Origin: a virus
Virus record (IMG/VR): IMGVR_UViG_3300044510_000078
Length of the DNA stretch: 64,000 bases
Reading direction: 5' to 3' (one strand)
Part shown: one piece after another, positions 9,829 to 62,100 of the stretch
How the letters are laid out: every line of letters starts with the position of its first letter
Position numbering within the stretch: the first letter of the stretch is position 1
Notes under the pieces: generated by a model
The model's input: the letters and a program-made list of their open reading frames with translations, nothing else
Told to the model about the DNA's origin: nothing
The model's database searches: none
Made by a program: the position numbers and the translations under genes

Positions 9829-10023
9829 TTATAAATACCCATAAGAGCCTCCGCAAACGGGGCAATATAATCCTTTAATTTTTATAACAAAGAAACCGTT
9901 TGTAGTTTGAAACGAGTCCCCAAGTTTCATGCGTTTTAATTTGGCTTTATTACATTGCCAATTTGTGCATTTTATTTTATTAGCGGTATTCATGTCTGAG
10001 TAGTCTCCACCTCTTTGAGTCAA
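9829..10023 (-). CDS. small zinc-finger protein
   Basis: CTNWQC...CPVCG. Confidence 0.55.
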   Translation of the reverse strand: MTQRGGDYSDMNTANKIKCTNWQCNKAKLKRMKLGDSFQTTNGFFVIKIKGLYCPVCGGSYGYL

Positions 10024-10516
10024 TTTCTACTTGACCAGAATCAATTTTTTTTATCATTTCTAAAACTTCTTCCAATGAATTATAGATATACTTGTGAGGT
10101 AGCTGCCCCATTATCCAAAATGGCGTGTGTTGTTTGCCGCCCTCAATAAAAACAAAAATTGGTTTTTTCATTCTTACAAAAGTTGTTAATTCTTCTGCGC
10201 TTCCCCAAGAAGCGACCTTGGGTATTATCTGAACGATGGCGAAATCGCTAACGTCGCAAAGCCTCAAGTCGTCAGACCTAACTTGTTTCATTCTTTCTGC
10301 AACTTTGTCGTATTCTTTAGCGTTCATCCAGCTTTGGAGTTGTTGGCGAGCCTCTTCGTCTTCTTTGATTTCGTTAATAAAGGGCTTTTGATAAGGATTA
10401 AAAACCTTTATACCTAAAGGACTCAAAGAGTCAATAACACGCTGCCGCCAATTTTGGCCATCTGCATACTGCATGGTTCCTACAACATAGACCCTTGTGT
10501 TTTTTAGTAAATTCAT
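9980..10516 (-). CDS. nucleoside 2-deoxyribosyltransferase-like protein
   Basis: VYVVGTM, NWRQ, KVFNP, DLRLCD.SD, WGSAEE. Confidence 0.7.
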   Translation of the reverse strand: MNLLKNTRVYVVGTMQYADGQNWRQRVIDSLSPLGIKVFNPYQKPFINEIKEDEEARQQLQSWMNAKEYDKVAERMKQVRSDDLRLCDVSDFAIVQIIPKVASWGSAEELTTFVRMKKPIFVFIEGGKQHTPFWIMGQLPHKYIYNSLEEVLEMIKKIDSGQVEIDSKRWRLLRHEYR

Positions 10517-10520
10517 AAAA

Positions 10521-10769
10521 TTAACTTGGGACAGCCGGAATATCCATCCAATATTTAATATCTTTAGGACAGATTCTTTGCCCGCGACGAGTCATATAAG
10601 GCTCTCCGTTTTCGTCAGTAACGCGACCGAAAAATTTACAAGTGGCTCCCATATCTATGATATTATGATTGTCAACCCAAAGGAATAATCCATTTGGTTT
10701 TGCGTCTGAAAGCTTAGTCCAAGTAGTGCGTTGCATATTCTTTAATTTGTCAAAGCGGTTCCTCTCCAA
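10521..10769 (-). CDS. hypothetical protein
   Basis: 82-aa ORF ending YWMDIP. Confidence 0.6.
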   Translation of the reverse strand: MERNRFDKLKNMQRTTWTKLSDAKPNGLFLWVDNHNIIDMGATCKFFGRVTDENGEPYMTRRGQRICPKDIKYWMDIPAVPS

Positions 10770-11004
10770 AAATTTCTCGAAGGGCTTGCTCTTCTTTAAG
10801 AGAAACGTCTTTATATTCTTCTGGAAGCGCGGCTCTAATTTGCTCGCGGTCTTGCGTTTTTAACCATTCGCCAAATTTATCAAAATCGGCACTGCATTTT
10901 TCACAACTTTGAGCGTTACAATAAGTCCCCGTGCAATAAGGACATCCAATAATCAAAGTCCGACAGTGGCCGCAATATTTTATTTCATAATTTTTAAATT
11001 TCAA
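10750..11004 (-). CDS. Cys-rich zinc-binding hypothetical protein
   Basis: CGHC, CPYC, C..C..C. Confidence 0.6.
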   Translation of the reverse strand: MKFKNYEIKYCGHCRTLIIGCPYCTGTYCNAQSCEKCSADFDKFGEWLKTQDREQIRAALPEEYKDVSLKEEQALREIFGEEPL

Positions 11005-11029
11005 TTAAAACCTCCTAAGAGAAAGGGTT

Positions 11030-11542
11030 CTATTTTTTATTTCTAAAATCTGCCATTGCTATTCCAGCAGCGGTGGAAACATTTATAGACCTGACTGTTC
11101 CGTATGCTGGAATTGTAACAATATTTTGGCATTTTGTCAAGACTTCATCAGGAAGTCCAAGCGTTTCTTCTCCAACAATCAAACATGGGCTGTTTGGCCA
11201 TTTAAATTCAAATAAATTTTCTGATTTGAATTTTATATTATTTTCTAGGGCTATTGGCGTATAGCGATTTTGAATATATGTAAAAAATTCTTGAATTGTC
11301 TTAAAATGAGTCAGTGGAGTATAATGATATGTTCCAACTGCCGCTCTCTTATCCCATCTTTTACTTCCGCCAATATAAAACGCTTCTCTAAATCCAAAAA
11401 AATTAGCATTTCTTAAAACAGAACCTAAATTAAAATCTCCAGAAACATGAGTCATAGCTACGGCAGCAGGAACAGATTTGTAAGCGTAATCTCCACAAAT
11501 AGCTTCGACTTCCATGTTTTTGTAATGGTCAAGGACATTCAT
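11030..11542 (-). CDS. SpoU/TrmH family RNA 2'-O-methyltransferase
   Basis: NLGSVLRNA, LIVGEETLGL, IPAYGTVRSINVSTAAGI (SPOUT motifs). Confidence 0.88.
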   Translation of the reverse strand: MNVLDHYKNMEVEAICGDYAYKSVPAAVAMTHVSGDFNLGSVLRNANFFGFREAFYIGGSKRWDKRAAVGTYHYTPLTHFKTIQEFFTYIQNRYTPIALENNIKFKSENLFEFKWPNSPCLIVGEETLGLPDEVLTKCQNIVTIPAYGTVRSINVSTAAGIAMADFRNKK

Positions 11543-11720
11543 AAATAACTACAATTTCTGGCCAATCGCCTTCGTAGTAACAATTACTAAAATCTAACCT
11601 AAAAATGAATTTTTTCAAATTCTTTAGAAGATACATCAGCTTCTTTTAGCTGTTCTAGGATGTGCTAAGGAGCGGCAATTGATTCCTTTTTTAGTAGTTT
11701 TATTTTTCTGCTTTTTTCAT
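11529..11720 (-). pseudogene. degraded small ORF (about 63 aa if repaired)
   Basis: MKKAEKIKLL...CYYEGDWPEIVVIYECP is readable only after two homopolymer indels and one in-frame TAG (11665-11667). Confidence 0.3.
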
Positions 11721-11795
11721 ATAAATTATGGAACAAAATTTAAATTACTAATTATCATTTTCGATATAGAGTGAGAAACGTGCGGTAGAAATTTT

Positions 11796-12412
11796 TTAAT
11801 TGTTCTTATTTTTGCTCGATTTTCCAAGTCTCTTGTCGAAAAGAGCCATGAATTCCGTTTTATTGAGAATAAAGCCAGTATTGTGTTGCAAGTCTAAAAC
11901 CTCGTCTATCCAATAGATTTTTTCTACAATTGTTTTTATTGACTCGGCTTTTAGCAGCATCGAAGCTGCGTCCTTCCATTTGGACCTCCAAAACAGGCTC
12001 TCCACATTTCTTCATGTGAAAAAAGCCAAATGATAAAGGTAATTTGGAATTTTAGCTTTTGCGGTTTTTAAATTTGTGTTTAAATTTTTTTGCCCATTTA
12101 AGTCGTGACTCTTCATCTGTGCCATCATTTTTATTCTCAAATCTTGAGCCAAAGACATACTTTCCTTCGCACTCAACAGACCTCCTTAGCGCGTCGTAAA
12201 CGGCAGCGTAGAAATTTTCTACCAACGGTTCAAAGACTCGCTTTATTTTTTTGTTCCCGATTGTATGTAAAAATTTGGATATTATTATTAGAATATGCCT
12301 CCCTGCCACAAATCCAAAAATACAAATGATTTAAGGCATAAAAATCATAAAACGTCTTTAAAATATTTCTTGCATGAAAGGCGTGGTTTTTTCTCCTAAG
12401 ACCTTTTCTCAT
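11796..12412 (-). pseudogene. frameshifted hypothetical phage protein (about 205 aa if repaired)
   Basis: Three track ORFs join into one frame by 1-nt indels at runs 12246-12252, 12065-12069 and 11979-11981, giving ...FYDFYAL...FGGPKWKDAA...LDLQHNTGFILNK. Confidence 0.5.
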
Positions 12413-12420
12413 ATATCACA

Positions 12421-12448
12421 ATTCTATTATGAGTCTATAGAAAGTCAA
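12421..12448 (-). promoter_or_regulatory. sigma70-type promoter
   Basis: TTGACT-16-TAGAAT, 8 nt before ATG 12412. Confidence 0.55.
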
Positions 12449-12449
12449 G

Positions 12450-12482
12450 AAAAAACGCGGCGAGAGAAAGGTTCCCACCGCG
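12450..12482 (-). terminator. intrinsic terminator after DUF2828 gene
   Basis: CGCGGTGGGA/TCTCGCCGCG 10-bp stem followed by T6. Confidence 0.8.
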
Positions 12483-12484
12483 CA

Positions 12485-12529
12485 GATTATATTGCTATTT
12501 GTATTTACTTGTGACAGCGCAACATAATC
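12485..12529 (-). other. 3' UTR hairpin whose arms are antisense to the upstream ACAGCA elements
   Basis: GATTATGTTGC/GCAATATAATC 11-bp stem. Confidence 0.55.
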
Positions 12530-12538
12530 GAAACTTCA

Positions 12539-14059
12539 TTAAACTCCCAAAGCTTTATATCTTTCGGAGTTTAATACCTTTAGCATGAATTGATATGGAG
12601 TTGTTCCATTCATTACGTATTGGAAGACGCTTGGAGAACATCCGCTTAGTAAAACAACTCCTACATCATTCGTTTTAGCGGGAGACTGTCCAACTGTCGC
12701 ATTTACGTTCCAAAAAACTAACTTAGGCATAGAATATCCGAAGTTTTTATATTGACGAGCTATTTCTTTAAAATTTGTTGCGTCATTGTTGCTTGTAGCG
12801 GCGTCAAACTGCATATCAGAAACAATATAAATCACAGACGGCATTTCTTTTGCTGGGACTTTATTTGCCTTAGCTGTATTTAAAATACGATTAAAAACAG
12901 ACTGCAAATTTGTATTCATCCCCCAATCTGCGTCATTAATATTGTTTATCTTTTCTTTAATTGTTGAGCCTTCTACTTTGACCAATTCAGACTCAGCAGA
13001 AAACGTCATAAAATAACCGTTAAATGCTCCAACATTCTTTTCGGCAAAATACAAAGCCAAAGACACAGATACATCAATTGGGGCTACCGAACCTTTAGTA
13101 GAGGTCATTGAACCGGACACATCAGCAACCACCAAGCCATTGTGGGGGTTTTCAGCCAAAAAGTCTGGCAAATTATTCCACAACAATTCAAGAGTTTTTG
13201 AATCGTCGCCCTTACGTAATTTAGCTACAACGTCATAAGGATAAAGCGCCCCGGCGTTTACTTTGGCTTCTCCTTTTTCTACGGCAGACTGCCAAGTTTG
13301 GTAGCCATCGGCATCGTGGCGAGCAAAAGCTTTACAATAAATCATTGAGGCGCGAGAAGGCACCTGTTCATAATTTATGACATTCCAATTTCCGCCGCAC
13401 ATCTTTTGTTCTACAACATTTAAATAAGAACGCAAATAACTAAGCGTGTGACGATATTTCTTTTCAGAAAATCCTAAGTCTTTCGCCAGCATTTTAGCGA
13501 GCTTAACGGTTTCTTTGCTGGAGGTATTGATAGAAGGCATCCATTTTGCTAACAATGAAACGGATGATTTCTTGTTGTTTTCAACTGCGATATTCCAGTC
13601 TTTGATAAGTTGTTTTTTAAGTAAATGGACCACATGAGGCCAAACAATTAAATTTCCTTTAAGCGCAAACAAATCATCCCAACGTCCATAAAACGGAACA
13701 TTTTTTAAATTACGAATAACCAAATCTGGATAATTCTTAGCGAGGGCATTTAAGCCAACCCTAAAAGTTCTGCGTTCTCCCTGTCCTCCTCTTATGTCTC
13801 GAAGATAAAAAAGACATTTAAATGCCAACTCAAGATTTTCCTTTGCGGCATTTGAAACTAAATCAACAATGACTTCTTCTGAATTTTGACGCAAAGCACC
13901 ACCTTGCGAAAATAAATCCAAAACATCTGAATTCGATGTAACTGGTGTTAGAGCGCCATTTTCCGTTGTGGTAAATGTTTGTGAGCGAACGGTTTTCTTC
14001 CGTTCGTATGCTGTCACTCCCCCTTGCTCTTTGGTGATTGCCTTTATTAGTTTATTCAT
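12539..14059 (-). CDS. DUF2828 family protein (TROVE-like ring plus vWA; Ro60-related)
   Basis: TTENGA, LFYLRDIRGGQGERRTF, YGRWDDL, AKWMP, MIDAS-like VADVSGSM, IVSDMQFD, FWNVN. Confidence 0.88.
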   Translation of the reverse strand: MNKLIKAITKEQGGVTAYERKKTVRSQTFTTTENGALTPVTSNSDVLDLFSQGGALRQNSEEVIVDLVSNAAKENLELAFKCLFYLRDIRGGQGERRTFRVGLNALAKNYPDLVIRNLKNVPFYGRWDDLFALKGNLIVWPHVVHLLKKQLIKDWNIAVENNKKSSVSLLAKWMPSINTSSKETVKLAKMLAKDLGFSEKKYRHTLSYLRSYLNVVEQKMCGGNWNVINYEQVPSRASMIYCKAFARHDADGYQTWQSAVEKGEAKVNAGALYPYDVVAKLRKGDDSKTLELLWNNLPDFLAENPHNGLVVADVSGSMTSTKGSVAPIDVSVSLALYFAEKNVGAFNGYFMTFSAESELVKVEGSTIKEKINNINDADWGMNTNLQSVFNRILNTAKANKVPAKEMPSVIYIVSDMQFDAATSNNDATNFKEIARQYKNFGYSMPKLVFWNVNATVGQSPAKTNDVGVVLLSGCSPSVFQYVMNGTTPYQFMLKVLNSERYKALGV

Positions 14060-14082
14060 TTTTTACCTTTCTTTAAAAAATC

Positions 14083-14134
14083 AAGACGCCCCTTTGTATG
14101 GGCTATACATATTTTAAGTTGCTGTAGGCACCTT
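14083..14134 (-). ncRNA. putative structured RNA element 2 (ACAGCA-loop hairpin, 52 nt)
   Basis: Outer stem AAGGTGCC/GGCGTCTT, loop TACAGCAACTTAA, inner hairpin TGTAT-AGCCC-ATACA. Confidence 0.6.
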
Positions 14135-14143
14135 TCATTAAAC

Positions 14144-14195
14144 ACGATACGTTTTTTTCTATGTTGAGGTAGATATAATCTGCTGTTAGTATCGT
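14144..14195 (-). ncRNA. putative structured RNA element 1 (ACAGCA-loop hairpin, 52 nt)
   Basis: Outer stem ACGATAC/GTATCGT starting at the predicted TSS, loop TAACAGCAGATTATA, inner hairpin TCTA-8nt-TAGA. Confidence 0.6.
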
Positions 14196-14201
14196 AACAT
14201 T

Positions 14202-14230
14202 ATTCTAGTAGGGTCTTGTAGATTTGTCAA
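14202..14230 (-). promoter_or_regulatory. sigma70-type promoter for ACAGCA elements and DUF2828
   Basis: TTGACA-17-TAGAAT; element 1 begins 6 nt downstream. Confidence 0.8.
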
Positions 14231-14255
14231 ATCTTTTTTCCAGAAATCAATAAAA

Positions 14256-14263
14256 AGTGTAAT
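14256..14263 (+). promoter_or_regulatory. AGTGTAAT motif (candidate phage-sigma/late promoter)
   Basis: Identical 8-mer lies 2-8 nt before four start codons in the window. Confidence 0.5.
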
Positions 14264-14265
14264 TT

Positions 14266-14594
14266 ATGAGGGTAAAGATTATGGTTTTGGATATAGTGGG
14301 GCCGTTGGATACGTCGCTTCTGGAGATTTTACGAGTGGACAATTCTTAACGCCAACCAATGCGGACAAAAAAACTGTTATTTCTGATATTTTCTTATCAT
14401 CTCAATTGTCTAATATCTTTACAATTACCGATAATGCTGGCGCAAATTATGCGAAACTTTATGTTCCATCAGAAGGCTCAATGCAAATTACTCCAAGACT
14501 ACAAATTAAATTAGACCAAAATACAAGATTGAAAGTGACCTCCGACGCTACTGGTAATGCGTCTTGTTCTGTTTTTTATTTCTTAGATAACTAA
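14266..14594 (+). pseudogene. small virion-like protein with 1-nt frameshift (109 aa if repaired)
   Basis: Adding one A at 14274-14276 joins ATG 14266 to the open frame ending at 14594 (MRVKDYGFGYSGAVG...SVFYFLDN). Confidence 0.5.
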
Positions 14595-14603
14595 AGAAGA
14601 ATT

Positions 14604-14726
14604 ATGTATCGTATTTTCCATTCAAGGTTATTGCTATGGGGCAATTCTTTACGAGTTTTGCTGCTAGAAAGAACTCCTTCTGAAGCAATATTGACAGAAA
14701 ATAATTTGCCATTCTTACTCGAATAA
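14604..14726 (+). CDS. 40-aa hypothetical protein (...AILTENNLPFLLE)
   Basis: Manual translation; fills the gap in the plus-strand mini-operon. Confidence 0.45.
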   Translation: MYRIFHSRLLLWGNSLRVLLLERTPSEAILTENNLPFLLE

Positions 14727-14728
14727 CT

Positions 14729-14993
14729 ATGACAACTAAAGTAAAAGAATTTCAAGTCGAAGTAGATGTATATAACGGAGCAACTGGCCCTACTGGGCCA
14801 ACCGGGGCGACCGAACCCCGCGCAAACCGCATCTGGCAACCACGGCGGCGTGACCATTGCCGAGTATTACAACGGCGGTGGACTGGCCTCCAACATTCAT
14901 GTTACCGAGCTTCTGCTTTACGGAGTGAACCATACATCCGAGCAGGCAGACGAGGTGTTTGATTACCTGAACGACAAGTTTGCGGTTTACTAA
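14729..14993 (+). pseudogene. chimeric remnant: collagen-like N-terminus joined out of frame to the C-terminus of a LamG-like virion protein
   Basis: GATGPTGPTGAT in one frame; TELLLYG...EVFDYLNDKF in another; locally GC-rich. Confidence 0.55.
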
Positions 14994-15026
14994 AACCTCT
15001 GAGCGATTCCCGTAGAGATGACGGAT

Positions 15027-15500
15027 TTAAAGCTTACAAACAAACAAATCTTGTGCCATTTGTGAATGAGAAGAATCTTCAAAAAAATACTCAAAAATTG
15101 AACGCACGATTTTCCATTCTCCACCAGCAAGGCTACAACCAATTTTATATGGGATTGCAACTTTTTTTATTCCAAGTTGAATGGTGTCTTTTTGCGCGAG
15201 TTCAATTGATTGATAGAAGGCTTCGTAGTTTAATTGACGGGAGTTTCTAGCGAAACTTCCATAATGATACTGTCCATAGAGATTATATATCATTTTTTCA
15301 TCTTTTGTTTTAGCAGATGAAAACTTACCTAACTTACCTTTGTCTCCACAAACGGTCCGACTATCGGCACCAAAGGCTTCTGGATATTTTGATTTAACGC
15401 TCAATGCGACCCCCGCCCCCATCGTATTAAAGCAATTACAGCAATGAAAGACCGCTCCAACTGGAATCTCCAATACGTCAAAGTTTACTTCTGTAATCAT
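15027..15500 (-). CDS. Macro-domain protein (ADP-ribose hydrolase-like)
   Basis: HCCNCFNTMGAGVA, YNLYGQ, IGCSLAGG.W. Confidence 0.88.
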   Translation of the reverse strand: MITEVNFDVLEIPVGAVFHCCNCFNTMGAGVALSVKSKYPEAFGADSRTVCGDKGKLGKFSSAKTKDEKMIYNLYGQYHYGSFARNSRQLNYEAFYQSIELAQKDTIQLGIKKVAIPYKIGCSLAGGEWKIVRSIFEYFFEDSSHSQMAQDLFVCKL

Positions 15501-15504
15501 AATT

Positions 15505-15684
15505 TTATAGGTTGATGCTCCATAAATCAGGTCTAACTCTAAATAATTCTAAGACTTGTGATTCTTCGAGAGTTTTTTCAATTGGTAAACGCGAAAAAAA
15601 GTCAACTTCAATTTCGCCATCTTTGGCAGAAACGATGATTTCAAGCCCAATATTTGTTTTAGTTTGTTTGACTTTAAGTGTCAT
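15505..15684 (-). CDS. 59-aa hypothetical protein
   Basis: Manual translation; starts right after the AAA+ stop. Confidence 0.5.
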   Translation of the reverse strand: MTLKVKQTKTNIGLEIIVSAKDGEIEVDFFSRLPIEKTLEESQVLELFRVRPDLWSINL

Positions 15685-16809
15685 CTATCTTCCTCCAAAA
15701 CCGAATCCAACTTGTTTTTCTACTTCTTGGAAGTTATTGTTATCTCTTAAATTGTAAATTTCGCCGATGGACATTGGGGCCGTAACCTTGAATTCAAATC
15801 CTAGAGAATCTATGCATTTTTGCGCGTCTTTTATCGGCAGTTTATTGAAATAATAACGATATTTTAATCTTCCCTTCCTGAGAATTGCTTTGTCTATATT
15901 TTTTATATCAGTGTTATATGTTACTAAAAAAGTGACATTTAAAATATCATTAAGAATTCCATCTGATAAGTTCAAAATATTAAAAATCAAAGAATTATTA
16001 TCGGTATCTCTCTGTAAGATTGCTTTTTCTGCATCTTCCAAGACGAAAACTGGGCTCTCTTTCTCAGAGATAAGAGATAAAAAAGTTGGGGCAGAGAGAT
16101 TTTCCGTCATACAGCTAGGGATAAAGATGAAATCTCTATTTATTTTCGATGTTAGGTGTTTAATATAAGTAGTTTTCCCAGTTCCCGGCGGACCATCAAA
16201 AATAAAAATACCACCATTTTCATTTTGAAGTTTTTCTTTGATTTTTTGGTCATGCTCTACAAATCCTTCTCCATAATTTATTCCTAAATCAATTTTGAGT
16301 GGTTTTAATTTAAAATTGTTGATTTCCAATCCCCTACCGGCTTCAACCAAAAGTCCAATTTGATGAGATTCTTCTGTTTTTTGAGAAAACTTGTTAAATG
16401 TTTCAATTAGATGGTCTAGTTCTTTTTTTGTTGCGTTGTCTTTTAGGGCTTCGATAGGATAGTTTAAATTAACTGTCAAAAAATCTCTTTTGAAGACAGC
16501 AATAAGATAAACAAAAAAAATCTTAGATAAATCAACCCGGTAATATCTCTCTATCGAAGGGCGGCCACCGTCAAAAAAATCGTAAGATTCTTCTTTTTCT
16601 GTATCAAAGTTCAAATAGCTGTTATTATTGGCGGCATATATTAGTGAGCATCGTTTATTTTTTTCTAAAAATGATAATGTTCTATTAATATCACAATAAT
16701 TGAAACGAATTACAGATGGAGTAGTTCCATATTTCAACGCAAACTCTTGTATAAAATAACAATGCGGACTATTCGGGTCGCGGTTTATATTTTGGATAAT
16801 AGAACTCAT
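15685..16809 (-). CDS. AAA+ ATPase
   Basis: Walker A GPPGTGKT, Walker B VLEDAE, LNLSDG, AILRKGR; start reassigned to ATG 16809, 6 nt after TATAAC. Confidence 0.88.
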   Translation of the reverse strand: MSSIIQNINRDPNSPHCYFIQEFALKYGTTPSVIRFNYCDINRTLSFLEKNKRCSLIYAANNNSYLNFDTEKEESYDFFDGGRPSIERYYRVDLSKIFFVYLIAVFKRDFLTVNLNYPIEALKDNATKKELDHLIETFNKFSQKTEESHQIGLLVEAGRGLEINNFKLKPLKIDLGINYGEGFVEHDQKIKEKLQNENGGIFIFDGPPGTGKTTYIKHLTSKINRDFIFIPSCMTENLSAPTFLSLISEKESPVFVLEDAEKAILQRDTDNNSLIFNILNLSDGILNDILNVTFLVTYNTDIKNIDKAILRKGRLKYRYYFNKLPIKDAQKCIDSLGFEFKVTAPMSIGEIYNLRDNNNFQEVEKQVGFGFGGR

Positions 16810-16852
16810 ATTACTGTTATAAGGTATTGTTTTTGGGAAAACCAAGCTTTTT

Positions 16853-17083
16853 CTACGAATAGTCCGTGCCAAATCTATACAAATTAACTAAATTTAAAAA
16901 GATATTTGCATTTTGGGGCGTTTTTTCTCTGTGAACTCTATATTTATCAGAAGAACAAGAGGGCGAACTTCTAAAAATTGAAGTTAATGCTCCTAATTGT
17001 TCGGTCGCCCAACTCCATTCTTCGTCGTCATAGGCCCACATCAGGGCTGTGATTTCTCCAAAAAGTTTTTGTTTTTCGTTCAT
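16853..17083 (-). CDS. hypothetical protein
   Basis: 76-aa ORF. Confidence 0.5.
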   Translation of the reverse strand: MNEKQKLFGEITALMWAYDDEEWSWATEQLGALTSIFRSSPSCSSDKYRVHREKTPQNANIFLNLVNLYRFGTDYS

Positions 17084-31953: not shown

Positions 31954-32613
31954 TTATCTTAATGGGGTCAGAAACTTACATATGCTTGAAACACAATAAA
32001 GAAAAATAGCAACAATGACATGAACTAATCCATTCAATGCCCAAACCGTATGAGTATAGGGTCTGTATAGCCACTTATACCACCACTTAGACTGCCTTTC
32101 GATAAAGGGACGAATTTTCTTTTGTAATTTTTTAATAGCTTCTTTTCTTGGGCCGCTTTCCATTTTTAGCTCTTTTTCTAAGGTAATTTCGTGAAGTTGC
32201 CCCTTCAGGAAGACGGCTTTAAATTCAAGTATAAAATCTTCCTCTTCCCCGTCAATGATAAATATATCTCCGAAATAGATTTCTCCTGTAAAGTCCTCTA
32301 TTTTTTCTATTTTTAGGTTTTTAGAATCCACCCTAACTCCAAACGGCGATTCTGAGTCTTTGACGAGAACTCTGTCGTGAATTTCTTTATACAGTCCCGC
32401 CTCGGATAATGTATAAATATTCGAAGTTTCCGAGTGGGGAAATCCTGTGCAAATAAATGTATGATTGTCTAATGTTTTTTTGAGGATTTTTCGAGTCTCT
32501 TCTGAGACGGGTAAGGGAAGTTCACAGGTTAGTTCGCTGTATGCTTGGAAGTTCATTTTGTTCAGCTTATCATTGCGTGACTTTACCCAAAAGTCAAACG
32601 AAATATGCTCCAT
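31954..32613 (-). CDS. hypothetical protein (true start likely MNFQAY, downstream of the tRNA)
   Basis: The track ATG lies inside the tRNA acceptor stem. Confidence 0.65.
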   Translation of the reverse strand: MEHISFDFWVKSRNDKLNKMNFQAYSELTCELPLPVSEETRKILKKTLDNHTFICTGFPHSETSNIYTLSEAGLYKEIHDRVLVKDSESPFGVRVDSKNLKIEKIEDFTGEIYFGDIFIIDGEEEDFILEFKAVFLKGQLHEITLEKELKMESGPRKEAIKKLQKKIRPFIERQSKWWYKWLYRPYTHTVWALNGLVHVIVAIFLYCVSSICKFLTPLR

Positions 32614-32678
32614 GAGGGAATCGAACCCTACCTTAATCCCTTGAGAGGAGACTGTCCTGACCGATAGACGAATGGAGC
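32606..32678 (-). tRNA. tRNA-Glu (anticodon CTC), CCA not encoded
   Basis: GCTCCAT/ATGGAGC acceptor, D arm GTCT..AGGAC, loop CT-CTC-AA, TTCGATT T loop; one T-stem mismatch. Confidence 0.92.
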
Positions 32679-32718
32679 GGGTATATTAATTTAATTTTTA
32701 TTTGCATATTTAAAATAA

Positions 32719-33105
32719 TGGAGGCGGGTGGAGTTGAACCACCGTCCTAAACAAACTATATTAAATATACTACACGTTTAGTTGAGTTTTAACCACTCTC
32801 GAAGAATTAAATAAAATTTATCAACAAACATTTCAATTCTTCTATCGCTTGGTCTTAACGAACGTTAAGCGAACTTACGCTCGTCCAGCCTGTGATTACG
32901 CCATTTTAACATACAGACTTTTGTTAAATGACGGGTAGCTATTAAGCTACAGCGAGCTTGCGAGAGGCACGGATTACTCCCTTGCCTACCGCAGCGAATA
33001 ATGCTTTTTTATTAGCAGTTATTTTGGTGACTATTTATAAGCGGCCATAGTCTCCGCTACGTGCATACCTAATTTCGTCTATTCAGTCGAAACCATTACG
33101 CCCCC
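32719..33105 (-). ncRNA. ssrA: tmRNA; tag reading frame 33016-32942 encodes ANKKALFAAVGKGVIRASRKLAVA
   Basis: GGGGGCG/CGCCTCC-A acceptor with G3-U70, GTTTCGAC D-like loop, GGTTCAACTCC T arm, pk1 GACTAT/ATAGTC, resume context AAATAACT-GCT. Confidence 0.95.
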
Positions 33106-59171: not shown

Positions 59172-62100
59172 TTTAATATCTAAAATAGTTGCCCCTCTTG
59201 CTGCAAGATAAAAGCCATCTTTTTCTTCAAACTCAGAGATTGGCATTTTTGATGTCATCAAAGTTCCTGAGTTGTAAATAGCGTCCCCCATTATACTATC
59301 GTAAAACTGATTTTGCCGTATGACTTTATATTTTTTTCTGTAATTTGGATTATTTGTTCCGTCTGCAAGTCTTTGTCCACGGTCTGAACTTGTCAACATA
59401 GTAGTATTTGGGAAAATCAATCCATCGTCTTCTGGAACAGATTCGTAAGAAATATGACCGTTCAACATTGCGAAATCACTTATTGCAGGGACAATGTATT
59501 TGTTGTAATTATCTGGAGAGTAATATCTCTCAAAAATCCAGTCTGGATTTTTAAAACCAGAGACGTTGCGCCTAGAAATCATTTTTGATGGAAATTCGAC
59601 TAAAGACCTATTAATAGGAGTCTCTATTAAGATTCCGCTTCTTTTCATTACTTCTGATGCATAATTTTTTGTATAAATTTCGCTCACTGGGTCGTTTGTG
59701 ATGTCCTCAAGAATACATCCCTCGCTATAAACAGACGCCTCTCCTTGCTCTAAATATTTAAATTCTCCATTTATAATACAATTTCCAGTTGATTCGCAAA
59801 GATGTTCCACGTCGAAAGGTAAAGCTACATAATCTGTAAAGATTAATGGAGAAATAGTTACGACTAATTTTGACTGCTCTCTCCATCCAGAAATGACCCC
59901 AGAACGGGTTGACCAAAACCCAGTAATGGTTGGCCAATCTACGTTACCATAGCAATCTTTAACGCCTAACCATCCATTTCCACTAGGAATATCAAATAAT
60001 TGACCGCGACGCTCTTTATTTAAAAACGTATAAGTATCCCCAAAAGCAAAATTAGAAATATCTAAATGGATTCCAGAAACAAACGTCCCCAAACCTATAT
60101 CGTTATTATCTTGTCTTCCTGTATTTGGGAAATATTTTAACGCTCTATAATGAATGTCAAGTCCACTAGACGTTATTGCAGGCAAAAAAACCCTGTCATC
60201 TTTCATTGGGTTTCGGAAAAGAACTCCACCAAGGCCAGTAGCTATTCCAAGATGCCCAGCTGCCAAACCTAACCACTGGTCGCCAACTATTCCAAATTGA
60301 TGCAGGCCACCTTGCTCTTCCGTATTTCCAGCTACGGACAAAAGATATAATGGGTCCGAGGCTGGAAGATAAACTGGATTTGCACAAACTACCTCCATAA
60401 TCGGGAAAGCTTTATAAGCGTATTCAGAATGAAAACTGCTATCACTTAAAGTCCAAGCTGGCCTTGTGTATAGGGCTTCTACATCAAATTGATATTCGGC
60501 ATATTTTGTGTATAGCCCAACCGGAGAAGTATTATTTTGCCTTTGGAGCGCGATAGCGGGGTTAGAACAATCCTTTCCAGTATAAAAAATGTTATCCCAG
60601 AAAGTCCTATAAGCTTGTGGGTCAGCAGACATATCCTCATCGTTTATGAAGCCCTGAATAAAACTTGGAGCGCTATTATAAATTAGAGGATTTCTACCGC
60701 TTGTAAAAGACGTGTCGTTAAGACCCATCCCAGCCAATAAATCTATTTCCGCATAGTTAGAATCTACTTTATTAGTTTTAGAAAAAGTGTTTTTCTTTTT
60801 AAAACCAATCGGGTCATAATTGAATTCTGTTTTACCAAGAAGCCCATCTGGATTATATTGCGCTCCAGAAAAAAACTCTTTCGTAGCATATTCTTCGATA
60901 GAAAGATTAAATTTGATTTTTTCAGCAAATCCTATTGACGGCACAAAAAATAAATCATGCCAACGTTGAGCGTTGGGATAAAGGAACTTTTTATGAGCCG
61001 TGGCGAACGGCCCCTTAAAATATCTGGGAAAGAAATTCTCAGTTCTTTGTTCTCCCAAAACTGGCCTCCATTCGCTTAATTCGTCAACCGGCTTGACGCA
61101 AAACTTATTTTGAGGATAAATAATTTTAGGAAACGAACTTGGAGTTATCCTATTGTCGAAATATTCATATGTGTATTTGGTTCTATCCCCATTATAGGCA
61201 TACATTATAGAAGTATTAGACTGAGTTCCGGCACCAGCCCCACTGTTACTTATATATCCTTTAATATATTTAACATTCTGTCGCCCGTCTCCAATTACAA
61301 AACTAGGACTATATTTTTTCCATAGAAAATAATTTCCAGACACAAACTCTCCGGTTATATTGTATAGATTTCCAGAATACTCATAACCAGCATTATTTCT
61401 TATATATCCAGTGAATAAACCGCCATCAATAGAATTACCCATTCCAAATGTCTTTTCGGTAATAAATTTGTCTTCATCCTCTTTTGGGGAAAAATTACTT
61501 TGAATTATAGCGTTAATCTTAGCTTTTGGCTGATGAGCTTCAACCGGGTCATAATAGTATGTGTCACTCCATCCACCCATAAAAAAATCAGACTCTTCTG
61601 CGTTTTGGAAGTATCCAAGAATAGGGTCGTATTCTATACGAGTCAACCCACACCCCATTTTCACAAAGGCCGGACGTTTATATGTTTCACTGCTAAAATT
61701 TTGATAAAAAATAAAACTTGGTAAATCACAGTATAAGCCTCTTTGGGGTCTGCCCGCTATATTTCCGTCTTCGCCAATCATATAACCGGAATGGACATTT
61801 AATCCAAGTTTAAAAATTCTTCCAGAATCTATATGAGGAGAATATTTGACATCTTTGTATTTCCCAGCCCAAAGTGGACGGCTCAATTCAAGTGGAATAT
61901 ATTTAAAACCAGTAACACCGGTATATGCTAATGCAAATCTTTCCTTTCCGTATTCATCGAAGCCGCTCTCTGCAAATCCCCATTTAACGCCCGTAAAACC
62001 CATATGATTCAATTCGTAAATTAGATTTCCTTCCGAATCATAACTAGAAGGCATATTATATTGCTCTCGCGCCAATGGATACTGATACTCGCCGAACATT

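What the first reader, a model, noticed from the sequence alone, without database searches (positions are those of the whole stretch)
12450..14230. DUF2828 (Ro60-like) gene framed by two ACAGCA hairpin RNAs and two matching bulged antisense sites: candidate RNA-guided or RNA-switch system
Seen: on the minus strand a sigma70 promoter (14230-14202) starts 6 nt before two tandem elements, both 52 nt (14195-14144 and 14134-14083). Their stems differ in sequence but share one architecture: outer stem, ACAGCA plus a variable AT-rich stretch, inner hairpin, purine-rich linker. Right after the stop codon, the 3' UTR carries one antisense match to each element. Site 12527-12514 (TTATGTTGC[GC]TGT) matches element 2 ACAGCAACTTAA at 11/12. 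Site 12492-12477 (ATATAATCTGC[GC]GGT) matches element 1 ACAGCAGATTATAT at 13/14. Both have the same 2-nt GC bulge at the same position in ACAGCA. Established: DUF2828 combines a TROVE-like helical region with a vWA domain, the architecture of Ro60/Rsr, which binds Y RNAs and damaged RNA. Inference: the hairpins may be small RNA partners or guides of the protein, with self-targets in its own mRNA, or a 5'-3' long-range switch.
Basis: partly seen in the sequence, partly recalled or inferred. Interest (0 to 1): 0.8.

Follow-up and report, generated by a model that had tools for sequence, protein, structure and literature searches.

The report
Small partner RNAs of phage Ro60-like protein
The two hairpins ahead of this phage gene are real members of a widespread small-RNA family, absent from Rfam and from the papers I could search, that accompanies Ro60-like "DUF2828" proteins in very different phages and closely resembles the unexplained Class I RNAs of Dictyostelium. 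The proposed antisense target sites behind the gene are a chance match inside an ordinary terminator region.

Summary
The hairpins are real.

The family has a covarying 7-9 bp closing stem, ACAGCAA 1-3 nt after its 5' arm, a variable core, an A-rich linker and a 3' ...CU(U/A)G. It occurs in 64 of 88 uncultured-phage DUF2828 loci. All 121 hits lie on the gene's strand and none lies inside the gene. In four cultured phage genomes every hit lies within 3 kb of the DUF2828 gene.

The protein model matches Ro60/TROVE structures over its full length. The best reading is Y-RNA-like partner RNAs, here co-transcribed in the gene's leader from a strong promoter.

The only Rfam family that touches these elements, below threshold, is Dictyostelium Class I RNA, which has the same handle.

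The two 3' "antisense sites" are the two arms of one local hairpin next to the terminator. The match is at chance level and is not conserved in 49 relatives. The guide and 5'-3' switch readings are not supported.

This scan has found the same RNA family before on other DNA (at least 8 earlier notes).

The parts
14202..14230 (-). Sigma-70-type promoter TTGACA-17-TAGAAT. The predicted start site, about 14194-14196, falls on the first bases of element 1.
   Evidence: 11 of 12 consensus positions; sequence. The start site is inferred from the usual spacing, not measured.
14142..14197 (-). Element 1 (E1), 56 nt. Closing stem (U)UACGAUAC / GUAUCGUG(U), then UA, ACAGCAG, a variable core with a small hairpin AGAU/AUCU, and the A-rich linker AGAAAAAAAC. 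It deviates from the family at one near-invariant base (ACAGCAG instead of ACAGCAA).
   Evidence: R1 hit of 24.7 bits, E 2.6e-3, second best in the window and in the genome.
14081..14136 (-). Element 2 (E2), 56 nt. Closing stem AAGGUGCC / GGCGUCUU with two G.U pairs, so it pairs only as RNA of this strand. Then U, ACAGCAAC, an inner hairpin UGUAU-AGCCC-AUACA, the linker AAAGG, and a 3' end of ...CUUGA.
   Evidence: R1 hit of 28.6 bits, E 3e-4, best in the window and in the genome.
14066..14071 (-). Shine-Dalgarno GAAAGG, 9 nt after the end of E2 and 6 nt before the ATG at 14059. No terminator was called between E2 and the gene.
   Evidence: Sequence; terminator scan. In relatives the last element commonly ends flush with the Shine-Dalgarno sequence.
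12539..14059 (-). Gene for a 506-aa Ro60-like protein: DUF2828 helical part plus a DUF7788/vWA part with the MIDAS motif DxSxS (D313, S315, S317).
   Evidence: Pfam hits at 1e-47 and 5.9e-35. PHROG 850 at 3e-147. Invariant residues. AlphaFold2 model pLDDT 83. The top 12 Foldseek PDB matches are all Ro60/TROVE over the full length.
12485..12529 (-). Local 11-bp hairpin in the 3' UTR (GAUUAUGUUGC at 12529-12519 with GCAAUAUAAUC at 12495-12485).
   Evidence: 3' region -30.6 kcal/mol, z -3.5; coordinates.
12449..12483 (-). Intrinsic terminator of the gene: an 11-pair stem with 7 G-C pairs, then a U tract.
   Evidence: also matched as the terminator part of an unrelated Rfam leader model.

Best explanation
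E1 and E2 are two copies of a conserved small-RNA module of about 56 nt that travels with DUF2828 (Ro60-like) genes. I think the protein binds the constant 'handle': the closing stem, the single-stranded ACAGCAA beside its 5' arm, and the 3' ...CUUG. This would parallel Ro60 binding the conserved stem of Y RNAs. The variable core would give each copy its own role, such as tethering or mimicking another RNA. In relatives that core can be a plain hairpin, an anticodon-arm-like hairpin or a whole permuted tRNA-like domain of the YrlA type.

In this phage a strong sigma-70-type promoter starts transcription at the first base of E1, and E1, E2 and the protein gene are made as one transcript. The RNAs are then either cut out of the leader or act while still attached. 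E2 ends 9 nt before the Shine-Dalgarno sequence, so protein binding there could also throttle its own translation.

Shown: family membership, strand and neighbourhood specificity, stem covariation, and the Ro60-like fold.
Inferred: protein-RNA binding, processing, the transcription start, and any role in RNA surveillance or counter-defence.
For: - R1, built from 52 elements of other phages, ranks E1 and E2 first and second in the window and in the 164-kb genome.
- In 88 IMG/VR DUF2828 loci there are 121 hits at E<=0.01. All are on the gene strand: 106 upstream, 15 downstream, none inside the gene, in 64 loci.
- The bare hexamer CAGCAA occurs 192 times on the gene strand upstream against 10 on the other strand.
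- Closing stem: 87% of cells paired, 207 double-change cells against 64+-9 in shuffles, and at most 45% paired when the partners are slid. Frequent G.U pairs point to RNA of this strand.
- In four complete cultured phage genomes (456 kb) all 10 hits lie within 3 kb of the DUF2828 gene on its strand.
- Chimeras carry the same handle around a YrlA-like tRNA mimic: L030 at 49.2 bits and L010.
- The protein model matches Ro60/TROVE structures, E 1.8e-9 to 7.7e-4, over the full length.
- Literature: highly transcribed unannotated regions lie just upstream of the Rsr-like gene of the Listeria phage CKA15, and the authors suggested Y RNAs (PMC12282133). Bas63 gp130, Ro60-like and next to the tRNA cluster, counters the Ppl defence (PMC11482910).
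- In many loci the last element abuts the Shine-Dalgarno sequence.
Against: - There is no expression or binding data for this phage. It is uncultured, and the closest homologue of its protein is only 53% identical.
- E1 and E2 score modestly (25-29 bits), and single-sequence folding does not favour the structure.
- E1 carries G at a position that is A in 98% of family members.
- In PMC11482910 gp130 expressed alone from a plasmid rescued T7 on Ppl. At least that activity may therefore not need the RNAs.
- The covariation statistics come from alignments chosen by or fitted to the structure, so they lean towards it. The strand and neighbourhood statistics do not have this bias.
Confidence: 0.62

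Rival explanations
1. The elements are purely cis-acting: operator-like sites in the 5' leader through which the DUF2828 protein, or another factor, controls translation or stability of its own mRNA. No free small RNA is made.
For: Here both copies lie between the promoter and the Shine-Dalgarno sequence, with no terminator in between. In 26 of 48 distinct loci the last element ends 40 nt or less before the start codon, often flush with the Shine-Dalgarno sequence.
Against: - In other phages the same elements lie downstream of the gene (DirkDirk, L015, L016, L019).
- Some lie hundreds of bases away, wedged between tRNA genes with 0-5 nt spacers (L010: 256-315 between tRNAs at 183-255 and 320-392). 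There tRNA processing would release them as free RNAs.
- Two to four copies per locus, and chimeras with tRNA-like domains, fit stand-alone RNAs better.
- The two roles are not exclusive.
Confidence: 0.2
2. One reading: the variable parts of E1 and E2 act as guides or as one half of a 5'-3' switch, pairing with bulged antisense sites in the gene's own 3' UTR.
For: An exact 11-nt complement exists between E1 and 12482-12492 and is unique in the genome for that 11-mer (shuffle P about 0.0065). Pairing there would compete with the 3' hairpin and the foot of the terminator.
Against: - 3 of 169 genes in the same genome have an equally long upstream/downstream match.
- E1 and E2 have 15 antisense 11-mer matches and three 12-mers across the genome; the 3' UTR match is just one of these.
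- The E2 site is weak (8 of 9).
- The shared 'GC bulge' is just a shared UGCGC, one copy of which belongs to the terminator stem.
- There is no excess complementarity in 49 relatives (6.65 against 6.60 nt).
- The reverse complement of the core (TGCTGT) is present downstream in only 3 of 49 relatives.
Confidence: 0.04
3. The RNAs work independently of the DUF2828 protein, for example as decoys or mimics of tRNA parts aimed at host tRNA-cleaving defences. They would merely share the tRNA/RNA-repair neighbourhood with the gene.
For: In most relatives the locus sits in tRNA and tmRNA clusters. Some cores look like anticodon arms (loops CUGUUAA and CUGCUAA), and some elements are embedded in tRNA-like molecules.
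Against: - This window has no tRNA next to the gene. The only tRNA and the tmRNA are 18 kb away. Yet both elements sit directly on the DUF2828 gene.
- In four complete genomes hits occur only beside that gene.
- The constant handle argues for one common binding partner.
Confidence: 0.1
4. It is a chance resemblance or a DNA-level repeat (an operator or recombination site) and not an RNA.
For: Single-sequence folding energies are unremarkable.
Against: - The strand bias is 121 to 0.
- G.U pairs would be mismatches on the other strand.
- The stems covary.
- An independent model picks exactly these two sites out of 164 kb.
Confidence: 0.02

Closest known systems
Ro60 (Rsr) with Y RNAs of bacteria and phages: YrlA and YrlB (Rfam RF02553; Chen et al. 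2014, PMC4201824)
   Same: - Small RNAs are encoded within a few kb of a ring-shaped TROVE plus vWA protein and on the same strand (the criterion used in PMC4201824).
- There are several copies per locus.
- The RNA is modular: a constant stem closed by the 5' and 3' ends plus a variable effector part.
- In relatives the same handle encloses a YrlA-like permuted tRNA domain. In DirkDirk a YrlA-like RNA sits between two elements.
   Different: - The protein belongs to Pfam DUF2828/DUF7788, not the TROVE family, and resembles Ro60 only at the fold level (11-14% identity).
- The RNAs are about 56 nt instead of 80-130 nt.
- E1 and E2 have no tRNA-like domain and no YrlA hit.
- The conserved element is a single-stranded ACAGCAA next to a short stem, not the long helix that carries the Ro60 binding site in Y RNAs.
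- Binding is untested.
Dictyostelium Class I RNAs (Rfam RF01414; Kjellin et al. 2021, PMC7919456)
   Same: - The lengths are similar: 42-65 nt against a median of 64 nt (E1 and E2 are 56 nt).
- A short covarying stem joins the 5' and 3' ends.
- A conserved motif lies directly after the 5' arm. The Rfam consensus is ...CCUUACAGCAAU... and the R1 consensus is ...CuuACAGCAAu....
- The rest of the RNA is variable.
- The terminal bases are conserved: AAG...CUGU in Dictyostelium, (A/U)AG...CU(U/A)G here.
- RF01414 is the only Rfam family that hits the phage elements: 7 hits at 6 distinct elements, 23.6-27.7 bits, all on the right strand.
   Different: - Every phage hit is below the gathering score of 41.5, and E1 and E2 give no hit at all.
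- Class I RNAs are eukaryotic genes with a DUSE promoter. They were reported as unique to Dictyostelia and bind the RRM protein Rnp1A.
- I could not test whether Dictyostelium has a DUF2828 protein.
Bas63 gp130, the Ro60-like counter to the Ppl defence system (PhageMaP preprint, PMC11482910)
   Same: - gp130 is a Ro60-like phage protein encoded directly upstream of the tRNA cluster of a Felix O1-type phage.
- The window's protein is homologous to the gene in that position in Felixounaviruses: 35% identity, E about 1e-79; the gene is conserved in 251 records; its layout is shown.
- The authors guessed that some 'tRNAs' there are Y RNAs. R1 finds weak elements in that cluster.
   Different: - I did not see the Bas63 record itself. 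That gp130 is this orthologue is inferred from the paper's description.
- The identity to the window's protein is only about 35%.
- The anti-Ppl effect was obtained with the protein alone.
- Nothing is known about the defences faced by this uncultured phage.

Membership tests
   E2 scores 28.6 bits, E 3e-4. E1 scores 24.7 bits, E 2.6e-3. They are the top two hits in the window and in the 164-kb genome.
   Both elements are fully paired in the R1 alignment, apart from one outer position in E1. Both carry the conserved G5, C9, C180 and G183.
   E2 has ACAGCAA. E1 has ACAGCAG, one deviation at a position that is A in 98% of members.
   Both elements lie in the gene's leader, 21 and 82 nt before the ATG. 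The family rule is shown.
Dictyostelium Class I RNA (Rfam RF01414) | A score at or above the Rfam gathering threshold of 41.5 bits | tested here: not met
   There is no hit in the window even at E<=10 on 181 nt. Relatives reach only 23.6-27.7 bits.
Dictyostelium Class I RNA (Rfam RF01414) | 42-65 nt, a short terminal stem, and the 11-nt motif CCUUACAGCAA beside the 5' arm | tested here: inconclusive
   The length (56 nt) and the stem are met. E2 reads CCU-ACAGCAA, which is 10 of 11 with one base missing. E1 reads CUAACAGCAG.
Dictyostelium Class I RNA (Rfam RF01414) | A DUSE promoter about 60 nt upstream and a dictyostelid host | tested here: not met
   This is a bacterial-type sigma-70 promoter in a phage genome.
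Y RNA / YrlA (Rfam RF02553) | Encoded near a Ro60-type protein and on the same strand | tested here: met
   The protein is Ro60-like by fold, not by the Pfam TROVE family.
Y RNA / YrlA (Rfam RF02553) | A tRNA-like domain (T arm, D arm), a length of 80-130 nt, and a match to the Rfam model | tested here: not met
   There is no YrlA or tRNA hit at 14060-14240, and each element is 56 nt.
Y RNA / YrlA (Rfam RF02553) | Bound by the Ro60-type protein | not testable with these tools
   This needs immunoprecipitation or gel shifts.
Ro60 / TROVE proteins (for the gene) | A helical-repeat ring followed by a vWA domain with a MIDAS motif | tested here: met
   The model has pLDDT 83. The 12 best PDB matches are Ro60/TROVE over about 500 columns. 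D313-x-S315-x-S317 is invariant.
Ro60 / TROVE proteins (for the gene) | Sequence-level membership (Pfam TROVE, or a significant sequence match to solved Ro60 structures) | tested here: not met
   Pfam gives only DUF2828, DUF7788 and VWA_2. The profile against PDB sequences gives E 0.4 for TROVE chains.

The most novel reading that the evidence does not exclude
The phage ACAGCAA RNAs and the Class I RNAs of Dictyostelium are the same kind of RNA, by common descent or transfer. Both would be the Y-RNA-like partners of DUF2828-type Ro60-like proteins, a family also present in eukaryotes. That would give a molecular function to an abundant amoebal RNA class that has been unexplained since 2004 and was thought unique to Dictyostelia. 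It would also give an RNA ligand to a large protein family of unknown function.
Probability: 0.3. Interest if true: 0.9.

Novelty: new variant of a known kind. Interest (0 to 1): 0.72.

Why it matters
DUF2828 is a very large family. More than 7,700 relatives scored in one capped search, and 710 cultured phage genomes carry it, including Felix O1, A511/P100, Campylobacter phages, staphylococcal phages and mycobacteriophages. Its function has not been established. One member was recently shown to defeat a bacterial defence (PMC11482910).

A conserved, easily recognised RNA partner would make the family directly testable. It would extend the Ro60-Y RNA principle to a second protein family. It would explain the 'mystery' abundant transcripts seen beside this gene in a Listeria phage (PMC12282133). 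It may also explain the Class I RNAs of Dictyostelium.

For this window in particular, the layout shows that the association does not depend on a tRNA cluster. The promoter start coincides with the 5' end of the first RNA, and both RNAs sit in the gene's own leader with no tRNA nearby. This layout also suggests feedback on the protein's own translation.

Tried and rejected
1. Rfam gave nothing at or near threshold on the window: 4 kb at E<=10, 181 nt at E<=10, and the whole window at gathering thresholds, which found only the tmRNA and tRNA-Glu.
2. DNA similarity to cultured phages gave no match. The closest protein is 53% identical, so no near relative exists for a base-by-base comparison of the UTRs.
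4. The idea of a genome-wide operator or repeat was rejected. The 11-mer occurs only at the two sites, and ACAGCA is not enriched genome-wide (30 against 29 per strand).
5. The antisense/guide model was rejected.
6. A U-run after the elements as a general terminator was rejected: 9% against a 4.7% background.
7. Whether Dictyostelium encodes a DUF2828 protein could not be settled. Literature searches, a search for longer homologues (which found only a RecQ fusion) and the Atlas (which showed bacterial, viral and plant clusters) did not answer it. Avesson et al. 2011, which lists the four proteins associated with Class I RNA, is not held.
8. I did not retrieve the Bas63 record itself. Only its genus-level orthologues were seen.
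Full report
**Setting.** The window is part of a complete, uncultured 164,097-bp phage record with 36% G+C. It has no close cultured relative. The gene at 12539-14059(-) encodes 506 aa with Pfam DUF2828 (5.9e-35), DUF7788 (1e-47) and a weak VWA_2 match, and it falls in PHROG 850 'RNA-binding protein' (3e-147). An AlphaFold2 model built from a 21-sequence alignment has pLDDT 83 and pTM 0.74. Its 12 best PDB matches are all Ro60/TROVE proteins aligned over about 500 columns: Thermus phage phiLo Ro60, Deinococcus Rsr, and Xenopus and human Ro60 (E 1.8e-9 to 7.7e-4). The MIDAS motif DxSxS is invariant in the family. At the sequence level the protein is not a TROVE member.

**The observation.**
- The promoter TTGACA-17-TAGAAT at 14230-14202(-) matches 11 of 12 consensus positions.
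- E1 has the stem ACGAUAC/GUAUCGU. E2 has AAGGUGCC/GGCGUCUU with two G.U pairs.
- In both, ACAGCA follows the 5' arm after 1-2 nt and an A- or purine-rich stretch precedes the 3' arm.
- Folding energies alone are unremarkable: leader z +0.24, E1 z -1.8, and E2's lowest-energy fold misses the outer stem. The case rests on comparison with other phages.

**Comparison.** The first eight distant DUF2828 loci from IMG/VR already showed the same design. A high-GC phage whose protein is only 37% identical has tandem copies of stem, AU, ACAGCAAC, about 28 nt, stem, with unrelated stem sequences (L001). I then fetched 80 more loci.
- A simple scanner found such elements 120 times upstream on the gene strand and 10 times on the opposite strand.
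- The bare hexamer CAGCAA occurs 192 against 10 times there, and 44 against 38 times inside the gene.
- I aligned 52 non-redundant elements from other phages (A2) and built a covariance model, R1. R1 contains nothing from the window.
- R1 ranks E2 (28.6 bits, E 3e-4) and E1 (24.7 bits, E 2.6e-3) first and second in the 64-kb window and in the whole genome.
- On the 88 loci R1 gives 121 hits at E<=0.01. All are on the gene strand: 106 upstream, 15 downstream, none inside the gene, in 64 loci with one to four copies each.
- The closing stem is paired in 87% of cells. It has 207 double-change cells against 64+-9 in shuffles and at most 45% pairing when the partners are slid. These alignments were selected by or fitted to the structure, so that number leans towards it. 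The strand and position statistics do not.
- G.U pairs are common, which fits RNA of this strand.
- In the complete genomes of Bacillus phage 2S-4, Listeria phage A511, mycobacteriophage DirkDirk and Felixounavirus adrianh (456 kb in all), all ten hits at E<=0.05 lie within 3 kb of the DUF2828 gene on its strand.

**What the family looks like.** The consensus is (A/U)(A/U)N-A-G-R-Y-R-C, then 1-3 nt, ACAGCAA(U/C), a variable core, an A-rich linker, G-Y-R-Y-C-U-(U/A)-G. The median length is 64 nt.
- The core can be a plain hairpin.
- It can be a hairpin with an anticodon-like 7-nt loop such as CUGUUAA or CUGCUAA.
- It can be a whole permuted tRNA-like domain that Rfam recognises as YrlA-like: L030, 49.2 bits, E 5.6e-8 in the 67-kb scan, with the alignment, and L010.
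- Related tRNA-like molecules carry a hairpin plus ACAGCAA where the anticodon arm should be.
- In many relatives the elements are wedged between tRNA genes with 0-5 nt spacers. tRNA processing would therefore release them.
- In DirkDirk the order after the gene is element, YrlA-like RNA, element, terminator.

**Link to known RNA families.** Among 4,227 Rfam families, the only one that touches these elements is RF01414, the Class I RNA of Dictyostelium. It gives seven hits at six distinct elements, at 23.6-27.7 bits, all on the right strand and all below the gathering score of 41.5. It does not hit E1 or E2.
- The Rfam consensus (6-bp stem, CCUUACAGCAAU..., stem, CUG) and the published description match the phage handle closely. 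That description is: 42-65 nt, a short covarying terminal stem, an 11-nt motif next to the 5' arm, a variable remainder, a start of AAG and an end of CUGU (PMC7919456).
- I reached this link, before consulting the scan's earlier notes.
- Those notes show that other agents of this scan found the same family and the same resemblance on other DNA at least eight times. This window is therefore a further instance, not the first.
- In the searchable literature I found no description of the motif. 'DUF2828' returns five unrelated papers and 'CCUUACAGCAA' returns none.
- Two papers come close. PhageMaP shows that Bas63 gp130, Ro60-like by structure and directly upstream of the tRNA cluster, counters the Ppl defence, and it guesses that some of the 'tRNAs' are Y RNAs (PMC11482910).
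- The CKA15 study reports very highly transcribed unannotated regions just upstream of the Rsr-like gene of a P100-like Listeria phage and suggests Y RNAs (PMC12282133). R1 places two elements exactly in the corresponding position in A511.
- Chen et al. 2014 found YrlA RNAs next to TROVE proteins in phages but not this handle.

**The 3' 'antisense sites'.**
- The two sites are the two arms of one 11-bp hairpin (12529-12519 with 12495-12485). The second site runs into the terminator stem at 12483-12455.
- An exact 11-nt upstream/downstream complement occurs for 3 of 169 genes of this genome, and 10 nt or more for 9. Shuffles give P about 0.0065 for one gene, which is what a scan over about 170 genes should turn up. 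E1 and E2 have 15 antisense 11-mer matches and three 12-mers across the genome, and the 3' UTR match is one of the 15.
- The E2 site is 8 of 9, and the 'shared GC bulge' is a shared UGCGC.
- In 49 non-redundant relatives the elements match their own gene's 3' region no better than unrelated ones (6.65 against 6.60 nt; 8% against 7% reach 9 nt or more).

**How it most likely works here.** The predicted transcription start falls on the first bases of E1, so E1's 5' end needs no processing. E1, a 5-nt spacer, E2, 9 nt, the Shine-Dalgarno sequence GAAAGG and the ATG follow without a terminator. The whole is therefore one transcript, ending at the terminator at 12483-12455.
- I infer that the Ro60-like protein binds the constant handle of each element, as Ro60 binds the Y RNA stem, and that the variable cores provide specificity.
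- In about half of the distinct relatives the last element abuts the ribosome-binding site of the gene. Binding may therefore also feed back on translation. This cis-regulatory role is the main rival and is not exclusive.
- The neighbourhood here has no RtcB or tRNAs. It contains a SpoU-type RNA methylase, a Macro domain protein, an AAA ATPase and a nucleoside deoxyribosyltransferase. Relatives pair the gene with RtcB (A511) or a band-7 protein (DirkDirk), the company Ro60 keeps in bacterial RNA-repair operons.
- A role in RNA surveillance or counter-defence is plausible but unproven. In PMC11482910 the protein alone sufficed against Ppl.

**Verdict.** The hairpins are real and belong to a conserved RNA family, absent from Rfam and from the papers I could search, that is tied to DUF2828 genes. 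The guide, self-target and switch part is not. Relative to public knowledge this is a new variant of the Ro60-Y RNA kind.

Noticed in passing
window 32606-33105 (-): The phage encodes a tmRNA (Rfam 146 bits; ARAGORN tag peptide ANKKALFAAVGKGVIRASRKLAVA) next to a tRNA-Glu(CUC). These are the only known RNA families in the window and lie 18 kb from the DUF2828 gene.
   Followed up: partly
window 14243-14594 (+): The 360-nt gap upstream of the promoter holds an open frame on the opposite strand, in a block where every other gene is on the minus strand. It has no start codon before the TTG at 14406 (62 aa). It may be a gene remnant or a small divergent gene.
   Followed up: no
window 12421-12448 (-) and 12230-12412 (-): A second good promoter (TTGACT-16-TAGAAT) sits right after the terminator of the DUF2828 gene. 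It drives a 60-aa ORF with no family match.
   Followed up: no
window 60911-60960 (+): This is the third-best R1 hit (22.2 bits, E 0.011). It is antisense inside the 1314-aa ORF and has UCAGCAA and an A-rich linker. It is probably chance, and the genome-wide search did not list it.
   Followed up: partly
window 9980-16872 (-): The neighbours of the gene are a nucleoside 2-deoxyribosyltransferase-like protein, a SpoU-family RNA methylase, a Macro domain protein and an AAA ATPase. This set of nucleotide, RNA and ADP-ribose enzymes could be a counter-defence or RNA-modification neighbourhood.
   Followed up: no
L016 2996-3108, L016 3257-3370, L061 885-1004, L070 501-613, L059 104-225 and 404-530: These are tRNA-like genes of 113-127 nt with normal acceptor, D and T arms. 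A hairpin followed by (U/C)ACAGCAA replaces the anticodon arm. They are chimeras of a tRNA and the handle motif.
   Followed up: partly
L030 768-890; L010 2839-2965; L100 4502-4610: These are YrlA-like permuted tRNA mimics beside DUF2828 genes (Rfam 49.2, 32.3 and 39.8 bits, all below the gathering score of 69). The first two are enclosed by the ACAGCAA handle.
   Followed up: partly
L031 1-185: The 3' part of a GOLLD RNA (58.5 bits, cut off by the end of the locus) lies about 1 kb upstream of a DUF2828 gene and its element.
   Followed up: no
P0121 (1148 aa, metagenome): A single protein joins DUF2828/DUF7788 to a RecQ helicase (DEAD, Helicase_C, RQC, HRDC). It is either a real fusion or two genes merged by the gene caller.
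   Followed up: no
window 38541: The window and the stored genome record differ at one base.
   Followed up: no
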